A stretch of 64,000 nucleotides of DNA from contig OX597821.1 in the NCBI GenBank assembly GCA_951406725.2, forward strand, positions 72,230,001-72,294,000. Direction: 5' to 3'. Positions 8,053 through 49,000 of this stretch are shown here, one piece after another. This DNA comes from Octopus vulgaris (lineage: Eukaryota). Made by a program: the position numbers. Numbering within the stretch: position 1 is the first letter of the stretch; every line of letters starts with the position of its first letter.

Positions 8053-11000
8053 AGAATCTTTAATATGCCGGACTAAGTGCATAGCGGTATTTCGTCTGCC
8101 GTTACGTTTGGAAGTTCAAATTCCGCCGAGGTCGACTTTGCCTTTCATCCTTTCGGCGTCGATAAATTAAGGACCAGTTACGCACTGGGGTCGATGTAAT
8201 CGACTTAATCCGTTTGTCTGTCCTTGTTTGTCCCCTCTGTGTTTAGTCTCTTGTGGGTAGTAAAGAAATAGGTATTTCGTCTGCCGCTACGTTCTCAGTT
8301 CAAATTCCCCCGAGGTCGACTTTTCCGTTCATCCTTTCGGAGTCGATGAAGTACTAGTTACATACTGGGGTCGATGTGATCGAATGCCTCCCCCTCCCCA
8401 ATATTTTCTGGCCTTGTGCCTATTGAGGAAAGGATTATTATTGTAATTATTATTTTGGTTTTGGCTCACGTTCGGTCATATTCCTGACAGGAATTATGTG
8501 GTTAGCGGGTTACTACCTCTAACCTTAGGGATACACAAGTTTTCACCAATCTTCCAAGTGCTTAGAACCCTCATGACAATCCTTCCTGTCCATAAGAGAC
8601 AAACTTTTGTAAGAGCATTACAGGGCTTTCTACTCCTGATGAACAATCGAAAGAGTATCAAGCGAAATGGACGCTGACATATAGTTATGTTCTGCGTTCA
8701 AATACGTCAAGGCCCATATTTGCCGTTCATCCTTGTAATGCTGAAATGCATAAATAGTAGGGCTGTTTTACTAGAAATTATCATTAATATTAATTAGAGC
8801 AACAGAATACAATAATAGCCCCTCGTGGACATCACAAGACAATCGCCCTCGATTGAGCCTTATGTGCTATTTTCTACACATAAGAAATAGAAAACCAAAC
8901 AAGACCAGTCAGACACCAGACATCACACAATATTTCGTCTAAAATTCCATTGTCATCTAAAAAGGCAATAGCCAATCGTCCCTCGGCAGCTCAAAGCCTC
9001 CCGTCTTACAAATAAAACCAGACATTGTATAGTCCAATCCCAGCTGCATTCTGCTAGGTCGTCGTACCTGGAAAGCCTTTGACCATTCAACAACTACATC
9101 AGAGTATCCTGACGCTTCGCAACGACACATTCGATAATACAGTTTCCATTTGCAACATACTTTTTATGGATCTTTTCACTCACAAATTTCATTTCGTTTA
9201 ATTTTCGTCCAATTCATTGCAATTTCTGTATATTGATGTACGTTTTCTATGCTAATTATAGAAACGAAATTCCTTTTCGCCATAAAAAAAATAAATATAA
9301 TGTTAATAGCATTTAAAATTTGTAAATTTTGAGTAATTTTAGCCAATCGAAAACCACAAACCAATCGGTGCCAGTTTCCATGGTAACAAGTCGAGGTAGT
9401 GTCTGCTTTCCAAGCAATTCTACTTTACACGTCTGTTGTTGTCCTGTCACCACCTCACTCACCATTCGGCCTTTTTATATTCTTTACATGCCTCTTATAA
9501 CATTTCGCATGATTTCATTTATTATGACACGTAGGGAGACGGTCTCTCATAAATCTGTAGAGATTATATTCAAAAGTAAAACTTATTAAAACTTCTGTCG
9601 ACGTCGTCGTAATGTTTTGTCTAACGTTGTCGTGTTGCTATGCACAGCTACCACGCAGAAAATGCCAGCTTTTCAAATCCTACTTCATTATTCGATGAAA
9701 ATAATCAACCTTTAAGCCTCTGTAACATGCTTCTCAAGTTTTTCTGCAACAATTGAATAACAACACCAAATTCAGTGTGAGAAATTTCATTAATATACCA
9801 AGTTTGAAAATTTTCAGACAATTTTAAAATATCAGTAACTGTGAACCACACAGAAAAGATGCATTTTTATAAGTTCTCCTGGTTCTTTTTCACAATAAAA
9901 GTGGTTTTCATTAAAAGCGATTCATCACATGCGTAGCTGTGAGTCTTTCTCTGTGTGTTTGTGTACAAAGTCGTGGTTACGTCGTTTACATAAACATCTT
10001 TTTTATAGTTGTTTATTTATGTTGGAAAAGCAAACAGATTTCAACGATATGTATTTTTGTTTGTATGAAGCAAAATACGAAGCAGATATATTTTAAGTTA
10101 TTTTTATTTTTATACTTAAACGGCAAATCCCTATATGTTATGCGTGACAAAGTGATGTTAAACATTTAAATAAAAATTTTTAGCAGTTAATAATTCGATA
10201 TTCAGAAAAAGGTTTAATATACATGTTAAAATACAAATATAACAAAATTAATGAAAGTATAATTTTAAAATATTTTATAAATCTGTTCTGCTTTTGCTAA
10301 TATAGATGTGGTGAGCTTCAATTTATAAATTTCTATTTTCTATGAATTCAATTAAAAGACTATTTTACTTGAAGGTGAGTTTACACTCCATCGGCGTTTA
10401 TGACGCATCTTTAATTAGGCTAGATTCCCGGGATCCACTTCCGCTCACCCCTTTCGGCAGGCGACACCTGTTGGGGTATATATAAGAAAGAGGGTCCGTG
10501 ACAGGGGACAGTGAAGTTTTTGCTTCCGCTTCGCCAACACACACTGACCACGAAAGCAATTTTTCCAACCGAATTCTCCAAGAAAATACTGATTTCAGAC
10601 ACCAAACAGCCGAAACTTTATCGATTAACTGAAAAAGAGATAAAGAACGAAATTTATTTTTAAATGGATCAAATGGCAAATACTGAGAATTCTTTACAGG
10701 TGGAAATTGCTGATAATCAACAAACTAATGAAACTCCGATTAATGATTTACCTGAAAGCTCCAATGGAAATGCGCCACGAAAAACAGACTGGAATTTCAG
10801 CGAAGAACAAATTGTTGAGATTTTCAAGCGAAAATATCAACCTGATAACTTTACCTATGAAAACGAATTACTTTATCGTCAGAAAACAGGTATGTTTATG
10901 TTATACATTAACCGACGATTGATGTTAAGCGAATATATACTAAACATTGCCGTAGTTTATATGCACCGATTCTATATGTATAACTCCTTCCACCAGTTTA

Positions 11001-46000: not shown

Positions 46001-49000
46001 CAAATTCCCCCGAGGTCGACTTTGCCGTTCATCCTTTCGGAGTCGATGAAGTACTAGTTACACACTGGGGTCGATGTAATCGAATGCCCCCCCTCTCCAA
46101 TAATTTCTGGCCTAGTACCTATTGAGGAAAGGATTATTATTGTAATTATCATTTTGGTTTGGCTCACGTTCGGTCATATTCCTGACAGGAATTATGTGGT
46201 TAGCGGGTTACTACCTCTAACCTTAGGGATACACAAGTTTTCACCAATCTTCCAAGTGCTTAGAACTCTCATGACAATCTTTCCTGTCCATAAGAGACAA
46301 ACTTTCGTAAGAGCACTACAGGGCTTTCTACTCCAAATGAACAATCGAAAGAGTATCAAGCGAAATTGACGCTGCCATATAGTTATGTTCTGCGTTCAAA
46401 TACGTCAAGGCCCATATTTGCCGTTCATCCTTGTAATGCTGAGAAGCATAAATAGTAGACTGTTTTACTAGAAATTATCATTAATATTAATTAGAGCAAC
46501 AGAATGCAATAATAGCCCTTCGTGGACATCACAAGACAATCGCCCTCGATTGAGCCTTATGTGCTATTTTCTACACATAACAAATAGAAAACCAAACAAG
46601 ACCAGTCAGACACCAGACATCACACAATATTTCGTCTAAATTTCCATTGTCATCTAAATAGGCAATAGCCAATCGTCCCTCAGCAGCTCAAAGCCTCCCG
46701 TCTTACAAATAAAACCAGACATTGTATAGTCCACTCCCAGCTGCATTCTGCTAGGTCGTCGTACCTGGAAAGCCTTTGGCCATTCAACAACTACATCAGA
46801 GTATCCTGACGCTTCGCAACGACACATTCGATAATGCAGTTTCCATTTGCAACATACTTTTTATGGATCTTTTCACTCACAAATTTCATTTCGTTTAATT
46901 TTCGTCCAATTCATTGCAATTTCTGAGTATTGATGTACGTTTTCTATGCTAATTATAGAAACGAAATTCCTTTTCGCCATAAAAAAAATAAATATAATGT
47001 TAATAGCATTTAAAATTTGTAAATTTTGAGTAATTTTAGCCAATCGAAAACCACAAACACATCGGTGCCAGTTTCCATGGTAACAAGTCGAGGTAGTGTC
47101 TGCTTTCCAAGCAGATCTACTTTACACGTGTGTTGTTGTCCTGTCGCCACCTCACTCACCATTTGGCCTTTTTATATTCTTTACATGCCTCTTACAACAT
47201 TTCGCATGATTTCATTCATTAAAATTTATTAATGACACGTAGGGAGACGGTCTCACATAAATCTGTAGAGATTATATTCAAAAGTAAAACTTATTAAAAC
47301 TTCTGTCGACGTCGTCGTAATGTTTTGTCTAACGTTGTCGTGTTGCTATCGGCTTTTCAAATCCTACTTCATTATTCGATGAAAATAATCAGCCTTTAAG
47401 CCTCTATAACATGCTTCTCAAATTTTTCTGCAACAATTGAATAACAACACTAAATTCAGTGTGAGAAATTTCATTAATATACCAAGTTTGAAAATTTTCA
47501 GACAATTTAAAAATATCAGTAACTGTGAACCACACAGAAAAGATGCATTTTTATAAGTTCTCCTGGTTCTTTTTCACAATAAAAGTGGTTTTCATTAAAA
47601 GCGATTCATCACATGCGTAGCTGTGGGTATTTCTCTGTGTGTTTGTGTGCAACGTCGTGGTTAAGTCGTTTACATAAACATCTTTTTTATTGTTGTTTAT
47701 TTATGTTGGAAAAGCAAACAGATTTCAACGATATGTATTTTTGTTTGTATGAAGAAGCCCTTTTAGTTTGTTTAAACTTCGATTTTCGTATTACTCTACC
47801 CCAATCTCATATTATCAAAGTATGTAACATAATCAAACTCGAAGATAAATTAGTGAAAATAATTAACCAGTTTGCTACATGCTGTCTGGTTTTAACGAAG
47901 TTCTCTCTCAAATATACAGCCAAAACTATCGCATCTATCTGTATACATTTGTTTATTGAATGGGGTAACTGGAAGATTCCGTTGTCTTCCCAACAAAATC
48001 CATGGCATTTTTATATGGACACTTCTCTCAATGAACAATTATTGGATGAATTAGTGGTTGATTTCCTTGAGGTACTTCACAACACAGACACAAATTTCAA
48101 GAAACAGTTTCCCTTTTTAAACAAATCCGTGTCGCCAAGTAACACGGACAACGCGCTGAAAACTGACTAACATATTTCTACACTCTATAGAAATTACACA
48201 GAAAACCTAACAAATGATAATAGTGAGCGAAGTCCATACTCTTTCCTACATAGTAAAGTAAGAATTGAACTTATTCTCTATGGCTGTGCATATGTAACAC
48301 AACCTGCTGCTACATTCAGGTGTGTTTTAATGTATATAAAATGTAAATAGACATCAATTTCTCACTGTTCTTTATTGCAACAGTTCACATGTATTTTATT
48401 CATATTAACTTTACACAGTTGAACATGGAAACATTTCTCTTTAATTCTCAATGTTCTACACTCACATTCCTCTACATACAAACACTATATCATCTCAATC
48501 GACGTCTCATTCATTTTTATTATATTTCATCAATTTTTATACGACTCTTAATTTGCTAATTATTTCCATATAAATCGTGAGTTTTTTACTTTTATTTTTA
48601 ACCATTCAGATTTACAACTAACATTTCATTACATTTAATTTGTCATAAACTTTTGTATTATAGAATAAATAATTTTTTTTTAAATTACAAAATCTTTTTT
48701 CTCCTTATTTATTTCATTAATTTCTATTCTTTATTCATAAGTCTTCGTTATTATACAAGTATCAAGGTGATAAGCGCGAATTAATTTTCAGTTATTTTTA
48801 AGTAAATAGAAATATAAACAAGTGAATGTTTAGAGTAATCGATATAGTACAGTTGATGTTGTCTCTACTTTCGGAAATTTAAAGTACACGTAAAATGAAT
48901 TTTGTTGATTCAAAATTGTGCCGCGTGCTGTCTTAACTCAGATATGAATTAAAGATTTGTAATCAGATAAAAATCTGTTTAAACATATGTAACTTTTTTT

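What the first reader, a model, noticed from the sequence alone, without database searches (positions are those of the whole stretch)
10664..48170. Tandem array of intronless, cyclin-box-only cyclin T paralogues
Seen: three intact 927-bp single-exon ORFs and one deleted copy, one per repeat unit. Each intact copy has its own TATA+Inr promoter and a candidate poly(A) signal; the window opens mid-unit, so more copies probably lie to the left. Established: cyclin T is the CDK9 partner in P-TEFb, normally a low-copy multi-exon gene whose protein has a long C-terminal region (coiled coil, His-rich domain that engages the Pol II CTD, PEST). Here the protein ends ~25 residues after the cyclin box and has a ~30-aa N/Q/acidic N-terminal extension. 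Inference: a retro-derived, fast-evolving paralogue amplified in macrosatellite fashion, architecturally like the mammalian DUX4, USP17L and TAF11L arrays, and possibly a lineage-specific alternative P-TEFb for germline or early embryo. I do not know of such a family being described, but cannot search.
Basis: partly seen in the sequence, partly recalled or inferred. Interest (0 to 1): 0.9.

Follow-up and report, generated by a model that had tools for sequence, protein, structure and literature searches.

The report
Tandem array of short cyclin T-like genes
A roughly 16-kb stretch of an animal-like genome is repeated head to tail at least four times, and each unit carries one single-exon gene for a shortened cyclin T, a possible extra, differently regulated partner for the transcription-elongation kinase CDK9.

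Summary
Three intact 927-bp ORFs (10664-11590, 26450-27376, 39673-40599, + strand) and one 5'-deleted copy (47748-48170) each sit in one unit of a head-to-tail repeat of about 15.8 kb. The repeat starts left of the window and ends at 56986.

The 308-aa protein is a two-fold cyclin box closest to cyclin T: PDB cyclin T1 E 9e-44 against cyclin K 2.5e-12, and Pfam CycT2-like_C 6e-35. It stops 21 residues after the box. It is the only recognisable gene in the unit.

Each intact copy keeps a GC/CpG-rich block with a TATA box, no upstream ATG and a downstream AATAAA. The promoter-ORF-3' stretch diverges least between units 1 and 2 and has no indels. pN/pS of 0.5-1.0 cannot be told from neutrality.

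New lead: 7 of 9 residues that a mutagenesis paper (PMC4227133) names as needed for HEXIM1 binding are changed, including Y175 and K168. The protein may therefore be a CDK9 cyclin that escapes 7SK/HEXIM control.

Untested: retro origin, fast evolution, source taxon, expression and true copy number. No description was found in print. Verdict: real and moderately interesting; function inferred only.

The parts
1..8017 (+). Partial unit 0 of the array (tail of a unit whose cyclin copy would lie left of the window)
   Evidence: 1-8018 = 15807-23844 at 97.7%
8018..23801 (+). Unit 1 (reference unit, about 15.8 kb)
   Evidence: Self-BLAST blocks; sliding-window divergence against unit 2
10390..10663 (+). 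Promoter-like block plus 5' UTR of copy 1. TATATAA at 10479-10485, CAGT at 10509-10512. GC of 10390-10560 is 0.51 against 0.26 upstream; CpG o/e of 10390-10663 is 1.19; no upstream ATG
   Evidence: Found only at the three intact copies
10664..11590 (+). Copy 1: intact 308-aa cyclin T-like ORF
12084..12089 (+). AATAAA, candidate poly(A) signal of copy 1 (494 nt after the stop)
   Evidence: the low-divergence zone runs to about 12394
23802..37003 (+). Unit 2 (lacks about 2 kb, reference 19689-21750, next to the microsatellite)
26176..26449 (+). Promoter-like block plus 5' UTR of copy 2
   Evidence: 98.9% identical to copy 1
26450..27376 (+). Copy 2: intact ORF, 5 nt differences from copy 1 (4 change the amino acid)
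37004..45739 (+). Unit 3, truncated. Lacks about 9.5 kb (reference about 12205-21750). Segment 41290-43757 has no extended match elsewhere in the window
39390..39672 (+). Promoter-like block plus 5' UTR of copy 3 (9-nt insertion in the 5' UTR)
39673..40599 (+). Copy 3: intact ORF, 16 nt differences from copy 1
45740..56986 (+). Unit 4, the last unit; the array ends at 56986
47748..48170 (+). Copy 4: 5'-deleted. Only ORF nt 505-927 remain, in frame; promoter and N-terminal cyclin fold are lost
5956..6943 (.). (TACA)n tract of about 1 kb, one per unit; deletions and truncations of units abut these tracts
21753..22796 (.). (TACA)n tract of unit 1
35586..36056 (.). (ACAT/CACA)n tract of unit 2, shortened
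43760..44805 (.). (ACAT)n tract of unit 3 (a further one at 42938-43379)

Best explanation
The window holds a young tandem segmental array with a period of about 15.8 kb. It has four units plus a partial one here and continues to the left. The only gene in each unit is a lineage-specific, single-exon cyclin T-like gene that encodes just the two-fold cyclin box.

Shown: the array, the ORFs, their cyclin T affinity, the missing C-terminal region, and a conserved promoter-like block.

Inferred:
(1) The units arose and are being reshaped by unequal recombination or slippage at the roughly 1-kb (TACA)n tracts found once per unit.
(2) The ancestral copy was a working gene, because a frame of 308 codons that has drifted to about 34% identity with human cyclin T1 yet still matches the full cyclin T domain models cannot have stayed open without selection.
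(3) The protein pairs with a CDK9-type kinase through its better conserved N-terminal fold.
(4) It escapes HEXIM/7SK sequestration, because it lacks the residues mutagenesis showed to be needed for HEXIM1 binding (Y175 and K168 equivalents are N208 and D201). It also lacks the C-terminal regulatory region. It would therefore be a minimal, constitutively active or differently targeted P-TEFb cyclin.
(5) Several promoter-bearing copies raise the dose.

The copies now evolve under weak constraint at best, and one is already broken.
For: Array.

Family: (3 of 3 copies hit PF21797 at E 3e-35 to 6e-35 over profile 1-93/93, plus PF00134 at about 1e-10). One search gives 34 distinct PDB sequences at E <= 0.01: 12 cyclin T1 (9e-44 to 6e-41), 1 cyclin T2 (1e-36), 6 cyclin K (about 3e-12) and 15 cyclin C/L/Ssn8-like (>= 4e-4).

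Sole gene in the unit: (0 of 10 other ORFs reach a Pfam cut-off).

Promoter: (TATA conserved in 3 of 3 copies, no uATG in the last 200 nt in 3 of 3, GC 0.51 against 0.26, CpG o/e 1.19 against 0.68 for the unit).

Constraint:
- ORF differences are 5, 16 and 13 of 927 with 0 indel columns.
- The 2.3 kb upstream has 62/2302, 70/2298 and 68/2289 differences with 47-65 indel columns (Fisher p 3e-5, 0.039, 0.009).
- The 500-nt windows covering 10492-12394 are the longest run of low divergence between units 1 and 2 (0.4-1.0%).

HEXIM groove: PMC4227133 (abstract, passages, sections 7 and 14) names Y175, H154, T179, N60, Q56, Q50, Q46, K168 and D169. By the alignment these correspond to N208, Q187, T212, N94, E90, R84, L80, D201 and K202. 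That is 2 of 9 kept. These positions are identical in all copies that cover them.

The paper reports that Y175 and K168 mutants still bind Cdk9, and that Y175E has RNase-insensitive kinase activity.
Against: - pN/pS between copies is 0.96, 0.53 and 0.54, none different from 1 (binomial p 1.0, 0.22, 0.30). By simple count, 4 of 5, 13 of 16 and 10 of 13 differences change the amino acid.
- Other unit windows are also at or below 1% divergence (15875-16374, 17859-18849), so low ORF divergence could reflect gene conversion or mutation-rate differences.
- One of the four copies is truncated.
- Two of 9 groove residues kept is close to what the overall 34% identity would give (about 3 of 9). The loss is therefore part of general divergence, not a targeted change.
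- There is no expression evidence, no CDK9 or HEXIM sequence from this organism, and no usable structure model (pLDDT 35.6).
- Residue mapping was read by eye from one pairwise HMMER alignment.
- Splice-site-like motifs inside the ORF (acceptor-like at 10690-10699, donor-like at 11489-11497) leave room for other transcript models.
Confidence: 0.5

Rival explanations
1. Decaying array. A once functional intronless cyclin T-like gene was carried along by a neutral tandem duplication of a 15.8-kb segment. The copies are now redundant and drifting towards pseudogenes, and their intact frames only reflect their youth.
For: - pN/pS is 0.53-0.96, not different from 1.
- With only 5-16 substitutions per 927 nt, an intact frame is expected by chance.
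- Copy 4 lost its promoter and 504 nt of ORF.
- Units suffer deletions of about 2 and 9.5 kb.
Against: - The ORF has 0 indel columns, against 47-65 in 2.3 kb upstream.
- The ORF has fewer substitutions than the upstream region (p 3e-5 to 0.039).
- The promoter block, TATA and the uATG-free leader are conserved in 3 of 3 intact copies.
Confidence: 0.22
2. The ORF is one exon of a longer spliced gene, or is the organism's only cyclin T, rather than an extra paralogue. Further exons would lie in or outside the unit.
For: - An acceptor-like TTCTTTACAG|G lies at codon 12/13 (phase 0) and a donor-like GAG|GTACTT after codon 276 (phase 0).
- Cyclin T C-terminal regions are low-complexity, so Pfam would not recognise them.
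- The rest of the genome could not be searched.
Against: - An in-frame TAA lies directly before the ATG in 3 of 3 copies.
- A TATA-bearing, uATG-free leader is present.
- The ORF covers T1 residues 10-254 in one piece.
- No ORF of 90 aa or more with any Pfam signal lies downstream in the unit.
- The low-divergence zone ends about 800 nt after the stop.
- The HEXIM groove residue Y175, reported conserved from human to nematode (PMC4227133), is lost. That would be odd for a sole cyclin T.
Confidence: 0.1
3. Assembly artefact. Haplotypes or reads of one or two real copies were laid out in tandem, so the true copy number is lower.
For: Units are 97-98% identical, which is within the heterozygosity range of many marine invertebrates (from my own knowledge). 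Long microsatellites at unit borders are hard to assemble.
Against: - The window has no N or gap.
- Four units have distinct structures: a full unit, one with about 2 kb deleted, one with about 9.5 kb deleted plus a unique 2.5-kb segment, and one with a 1.1-kb deletion in the gene.
- Three different ORF sequences plus a fourth partial one exist. That is more than two haplotypes can give.
Confidence: 0.06
4. Decoy or inhibitor. The box-only protein binds CDK9 but cannot be recruited to polymerase, because it lacks the C-terminal region and has an altered groove. It would then titrate CDK9 away from canonical cyclin T and damp elongation.
For: The C-terminal region is absent and the groove is changed. 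Multiple copies would give the dose a competitor needs.
Against: From my own knowledge, not checked here: human cyclin T1 truncated to the cyclin box still activates CDK9 and supports Tat function. Y175 mutants fused to Gal4 were about two-fold more active, not less (PMC4227133).
Confidence: 0.1

Closest known systems
Cyclin T1/T2 (P-TEFb cyclin; PDB 3mi9_B, 3blh_B, 2ivx_A)
   Same: Two cyclin folds align end to end with T1 residues 10-254 at E 9e-44. The Pfam CycT2-like_C profile is matched in full. The most conserved stretch is the N-terminal fold around the window protein's VVYMHRFYMY and LFFAAKFDD motifs.
   Different: The protein has 308 aa instead of 726 (chain 6gzh_B length) and no C-terminal region. 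Identity is about 34%. Seven of 9 HEXIM-groove residues are changed. The gene is single-exon and tandemly repeated.
Cyclin K (CDK12/13 cyclin)
   Same: It belongs to the same transcriptional-cyclin group and is the second-best PDB match. The feature search also listed a 'cyclin-K-like' cluster.
   Different: It scores 50 bits against 153 for T1. The match covers only query residues 59-237 and does not reach the end of the second fold.
Mammalian ORF-bearing macrosatellites (DUX4/D4Z4, USP17L, TAF11L), from my own knowledge
   Same: Head-to-tail units, each with one intronless ORF and its own promoter. The gene is a derived paralogue of a regulator of transcription.
   Different: The unit is 4-5 times longer (15.8 kb) and only four units plus a partial one are seen. 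Units are structurally heterogeneous. Copy-number polymorphism and embryonic expression are unknown.
Germline-specific paralogues of general transcription machinery (testis TAFs and the testis PAF1 paralogue complex of Drosophila; PMC11535153, seen as listing and abstract start only)
   Same: The idea of an alternative version of a core Pol II factor encoded by a derived paralogue.
   Different: Those are dispersed single-copy genes with shown expression and function. Nothing of that kind is shown here.

Membership tests
Cyclin T (P-TEFb cyclin subunit) | Two-fold cyclin box that matches the cyclin T domain models | tested here: met
   PF21797 E 3e-35 to 6e-35 (profile 1-93/93) and PF00134 E about 1e-10 in 3 of 3 copies
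Cyclin T (P-TEFb cyclin subunit) | Closer to cyclin T than to cyclins K, L, C or H | tested here: met
   PDB phmmer: T1 153 bits, T2 130 bits, K 50 bits, C/L about 19-23 bits. This is by pairwise score only; no tree could be built because no reference sequences could be obtained
Cyclin T (P-TEFb cyclin subunit) | Groups inside the cyclin T clade in a phylogeny | not tested
Cyclin T (P-TEFb cyclin subunit) | Long C-terminal region (coiled coil, His-rich, PEST; features listed from my own knowledge) | tested here: not met
   A stop codon lies 21 residues after the last residue aligned to T1 residue 254
Cyclin T (P-TEFb cyclin subunit) | HEXIM-binding groove residues conserved from human to fly (Y175 also in nematode) (PMC4227133) | tested here: not met
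   Two of 9 named residues are kept (T212, N94). Y175->N208, K168->D201, D169->K202, H154->Q187, Q56->E90, Q50->R84, Q46->L80
Cyclin T (P-TEFb cyclin subunit) | Binds and activates CDK9 | not testable with these tools
The single-sequence model was unusable (pLDDT 35.6)
Processed retrogene | Lacks the introns of a multi-exon parent | tested here: inconclusive
   The ORF is colinear with T1 residues 10-254 (two small gaps of 2-3 residues and a single-residue one, no larger interruption). The parental gene of this organism could not be fetched
Processed retrogene | Poly(A) tract at the 3' end | tested here: not met
   At most 13 A in any 20-nt window within 1300 nt after the stop, in all 4 copies
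Processed retrogene | Flanking target-site duplication | tested here: not met
   Only three AT-rich direct-repeat families at 73-83% identity in 9800-13100, none convincing
ORF-bearing macrosatellite / tandem gene array | Head-to-tail units above 1 kb, each carrying the ORF | tested here: met
   Four units plus a partial one at 95-98% identity; 3 intact copies and 1 truncated copy
ORF-bearing macrosatellite / tandem gene array | High and polymorphic copy number | not testable with these tools
   Needs read depth or population data. The array runs off the left end of the window

The most novel reading that the evidence does not exclude
The array encodes a minimal P-TEFb cyclin that is blind to 7SK/HEXIM. 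It binds CDK9 but cannot be parked in the inhibitory snRNP and lacks the C-terminal targeting region. Tandem amplification with a TATA promoter per copy delivers a burst of unrestrained elongation activity at one developmental moment, such as gametogenesis or zygotic genome activation. It would be an animal-encoded counterpart of what HIV Tat achieves by displacing HEXIM.
Probability: 0.12. Interest if true: 0.75.

Novelty: new variant of a known kind. Interest (0 to 1): 0.5.

Why it matters
P-TEFb is controlled mainly by sequestration in the 7SK/HEXIM particle and by recruitment through the cyclin T C-terminal region. A naturally occurring cyclin T that lacks both features and is multiplied in tandem would be a natural experiment on what these controls are for. 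It would also add a core elongation factor to the short list of general transcription factors with lineage-specific alternative forms.

If the copies are silent or decaying, the locus is just one more young tandem duplication and of local interest only.

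Tried and rejected
- Structure. The single-sequence AlphaFold2 model was unusable (mean pLDDT 35.6, pTM 0.24), so no fold search was run. A second job with the three near-identical copies as the alignment would add no diversity and was not sent.
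- Taxon and relatives. The ESM Atlas feature search returned only generic cyclin clusters (scores 0.93-0.96) from fungi, plants, arthropods and chordates, with no taxon lead. The scan of prokaryotic genome contigs found 29 pattern matches, none confirmed. Rfam gave 0 matches and ARAGORN 0 tRNAs.
The parental gene, other copies, the cyclin tree and the viral-origin question therefore stayed unchecked. The only argument against an endogenous viral element is that the unit holds no other ORF with a Pfam match.
- TE-borne promoter rejected within the window: the promoter block occurs only at the three gene copies.
- Retro hallmarks were looked for and not found.
- Literature:
  - 3 papers hold all three terms.
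  - 2 papers.
  - 141 papers, 15 listed.
  - badly framed; none of the 20 listed holds 'cyclin T'.
  - 3 papers.
  - 44 papers, 15 listed.
  - none of the 15 listed holds 'cyclin T-like'.
  - 1 paper.
  - Judged by titles and abstract starts, none describes an intronless, truncated or tandemly amplified cyclin T.
- The Baumli 2008 P-TEFb structure paper was not held, so CDK9-contact residues could not be listed and checked.
- Supplementary tables of genome papers, which may list expanded gene families, were closed.

Full report
**1. The observation**

With the standard code and ATG starts, the window has 14 ORFs of at least 200 aa. Three are identical in length (927 bp, 308 aa) and lie on the + strand at 10664-11590, 26450-27376 and 39673-40599. 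The other 11 all fall in the roughly 1-kb (TACA)n tracts found by Tandem Repeats Finder and are low-complexity artefacts.

A self-BLAST shows that the three ORFs sit at the same place in a head-to-tail repeat:
- 1-8018 = 15807-23844 (97.7%)
- 8006-11996 = 23802-27782 (97.2%)
- 11994-19688 = 27877-35578 (97.2%)
- 8018-11974 = 37004-40983 (96.8%)

The window contains no N.

A fourth unit (45740-56986) matches reference 8039-10070 and then 11159-13019. A multiple alignment places the missing piece at reference 10064-11167. That removes the promoter block and ORF nt 1-504 and leaves ORF nt 505-927 in frame without a stop, at window 47748-48170.

Position 1 of the window corresponds to unit position 15807, so the array continues to the left. 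On the right it ends at 56986, and 57-64 kb is different sequence.

**2. Anatomy of the array**

Unit 1 (8018-23801) is the fullest unit.
- Unit 2 lacks about 2 kb (reference 19689-21750).
- Unit 3 lacks about 9.5 kb (reference about 12205-21750). It carries a 2.5-kb segment (41290-43757) with no extended match elsewhere in the window; only three short hits of 36-74 nt were found.
- Unit 4 has the 1.1-kb deletion in the gene.

The large deletions in units 2 and 3 abut the (TACA)n/(ACAT)n tracts (5956-6943, 21753-22796, 35586-36056, 42938-43379, 43760-44805). I infer that these tracts are where unequal exchange or slippage creates and trims units.

The spacings between ORF starts are 15786 and 13223 nt. 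This is a young, structurally heterogeneous tandem segmental array, not a uniform satellite.

**3. What the ORF encodes**

All three proteins match Pfam PF21797 (CycT2-like_C) over the full profile (1-93 of 93, E 3e-35 to 6e-35). They match PF00134 (Cyclin_N) at about 1e-10.

Against all PDB chains, 34 distinct sequences match at E <= 0.01:
- 12 cyclin T1 entries (9e-44 to 6e-41, 144-153 bits)
- 1 cyclin T2 entry (1e-36)
- 6 cyclin K entries (about 3e-12, 50 bits)
- 15 cyclin C, L1 or yeast cyclin-C-like entries (4e-4 or weaker)

The T1 alignment runs from query 41 to 287 and from T1 10 to 254. It has three small gaps of one to three residues. The whole cyclin box therefore lies in one uninterrupted frame. 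About 31 residues are extra at the N-terminus, and only 21 residues follow the box.

Counting the identity line by eye gives 84 identical of 247 columns (34%). The best conserved stretch is T1 residues 60-96 (20 of 37).

So the protein is cyclin T-like by every score available, box-only, and strongly diverged.

**4. Is it a gene of its own?**

- A TAA stands directly before the ATG in all three copies.
- Upstream lies a 170-nt block (10390-10560) with GC 0.51, against 0.26 further upstream. The wider block including the leader (10390-10663) has CpG o/e 1.19, against 0.68 for the unit.
- TATATAA sits at -185/-185/-194 from the ATG, with CAGT about 31 nt downstream of it.
- There is no ATG in the last 200 nt before the start.
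- The block is 96-99% identical between copies and occurs nowhere else in the window.
- AATAAA follows the stop at +494, +591 and +571.
- No other ORF in the unit has a Pfam match that reaches a cut-off: 0 of 10 tested (ORF lists).

This fits a simple, unspliced transcription unit of about 1.6-1.9 kb. Without RNA data that is a model. The ORF also contains an acceptor-like site at codon 12/13 and a donor-like site after codon 276.

**5. Selection**

Between copies the ORF differs at 5, 16 and 13 of 927 positions with no indel. The 2.3 kb upstream differs at 62/2302, 70/2298 and 68/2289 positions with 47-65 indel columns. Fisher p values are 3e-5, 0.039 and 0.009.

In 500-nt windows between units 1 and 2, the windows covering 10492-12394 (leader, ORF and 3' region) show 0.4-1.0% divergence. 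Most of the unit shows 1.4-3.7%, although windows at 15875-16374 and 17859-18849 are also near 1%.

Against this, Nei-Gojobori pN/pS is 0.96, 0.53 and 0.54, and none differs from 1. The data are too few to show purifying selection on the protein among the copies.

The stronger argument is indirect and is my inference. A 308-codon frame in 34%-GC DNA that has diverged this far from other cyclin T proteins, yet still fills the domain models end to end, must have been kept by selection until at least shortly before the array expanded.

**6. Mechanism**

A mutagenesis study of human cyclin T1 (PMC4227133; I read the abstract, search passages and sections 7 and 14) reports the following:
- Hexim1 binds the groove between the two folds.
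- Y175 is essential for this binding and K168E impairs it in human cells, while both mutants bind Cdk9 normally.
- Y175E P-TEFb has RNase-insensitive kinase activity.
- The critical residues are conserved in T1, T2 and Drosophila cyclin T.
- The Y175 equivalent of C. elegans cit-1.2 is required for binding nematode Hexim.

Reading the alignment gives these correspondences:

| Human T1 | Window protein |
|---|---|
| Y175 | N208 |
| K168 | D201 |
| D169 | K202 |
| H154 | Q187 |
| Q56 | E90 |
| Q50 | R84 |
| Q46 | L80 |
| T179 | T212 (kept) |
| N60 | N94 (kept) |

So 2 of 9 residues are kept. None of these positions varies among the copies that cover them. The mapping around Y175 is anchored by the conserved A-T and L-T-x-F-S-L-x-Y-T columns just downstream, with no gap between.

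My best reading is a CDK9-type cyclin that cannot be held by HEXIM/7SK and has no C-terminal region. I rate that specific reading at roughly one in three given a functional gene.

A caveat applies. With 34% overall identity one expects about 3 of 9 kept, so the groove loss is part of general drift and not a focused change.

CDK9 binding itself is inferred only from the better conservation of the N-terminal fold. The paper listing the contact residues was not held.

**7. Rivals**

- A decaying, neutral array. It fits the pN/pS values and the broken copy.
- An exon of a larger gene, or the sole cyclin T. The stop before the ATG, the promoter block and the lost Y175 argue against it.
- An assembly artefact. 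Four structurally distinct units and four distinct sequences without gaps argue against it.
- A CDK9 decoy.

These are scored in the Rival explanations section.

**8. Retro origin, taxon and print**

No A-run and no convincing target-site duplication remain. The gene has a TATA promoter that a retrocopy would not bring along. Retro origin is plausible but not shown.

Nothing here identifies the organism. The cephalopod guess stays a guess. I do not take the window for human.

Eight literature searches turned up no description of an intronless, truncated or tandemly amplified cyclin T, judging by listings and abstract starts. Supplements were closed and might list such a family among expanded genes.

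**9. Verdict**

This is a real feature, correctly described. It is a new variant of a known kind: a cyclin T paralogue in a tandem gene array. Its function rests on inference. Interest is 0.5.

Noticed in passing
57634-57834; also 8075-8270, 12796-13019, 20837-21036, 5028-5227, 23875-24064, 28676-28899, 37061-37254, 45776-45970, 49374-49608: An interspersed repeat of about 200 bp (84-90% identity between copies, SINE-like in size) occurs several times per unit and in the right flank. Two copies in the same orientation bracket the gene at 8.1 and 12.9 kb.
   Followed up: partly
5701-5900 and 21504-21700: A long AAT/ATT trinucleotide run, read as poly-I or poly-N in ORF translations, lies directly beside each (TACA)n tract.
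   Followed up: no
10372-10380 (and the same place in unit 2): A perfect consensus 5' splice-site-like AAGGTGAGT lies about 100 nt upstream of the TATA box in copies 1 and 2. It is mutated in copy 3.
   Followed up: no
47738-47754: The two BLAST blocks that flank the copy-4 deletion overlap by 17 nt, and the reference sequences at both edges share a T-rich ...TATGAA motif. This suggests a microhomology-mediated deletion.
   Followed up: partly
47583-48170: In copy 4 the frame stays open across the deletion junction (195 codons from stop to stop, with internal ATGs). A truncated protein holding only the second cyclin fold is formally possible, though the promoter is gone.
   Followed up: no
39520-39530 region (alignment columns 162-170 of A1): Copy 3 has a 9-nt insertion in the 5' leader just downstream of the presumed start site.
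   Followed up: no
41290-43757: A segment specific to unit 3, with no extended match elsewhere in the window (only three short hits of 36-74 nt). It is rich in ACAT-type microsatellite and replaces about 9.5 kb of the unit.
   Followed up: partly
58476-58656 vs 62940-63120; 61169-61414; 62517-62657: The right flank (GC 0.40) holds an inverted pair of 181-nt repeats at 92% identity, a purine-rich 21-nt tandem repeat (7 copies) and a 62-nt tandem repeat. No coding signal was seen in its ORF list.
   Followed up: no
10664-11590: CpG o/e of the ORF is 1.01, against 0.68 for the unit. In invertebrates this would fit an unmethylated gene with restricted expression (inference from my own knowledge).
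   Followed up: no
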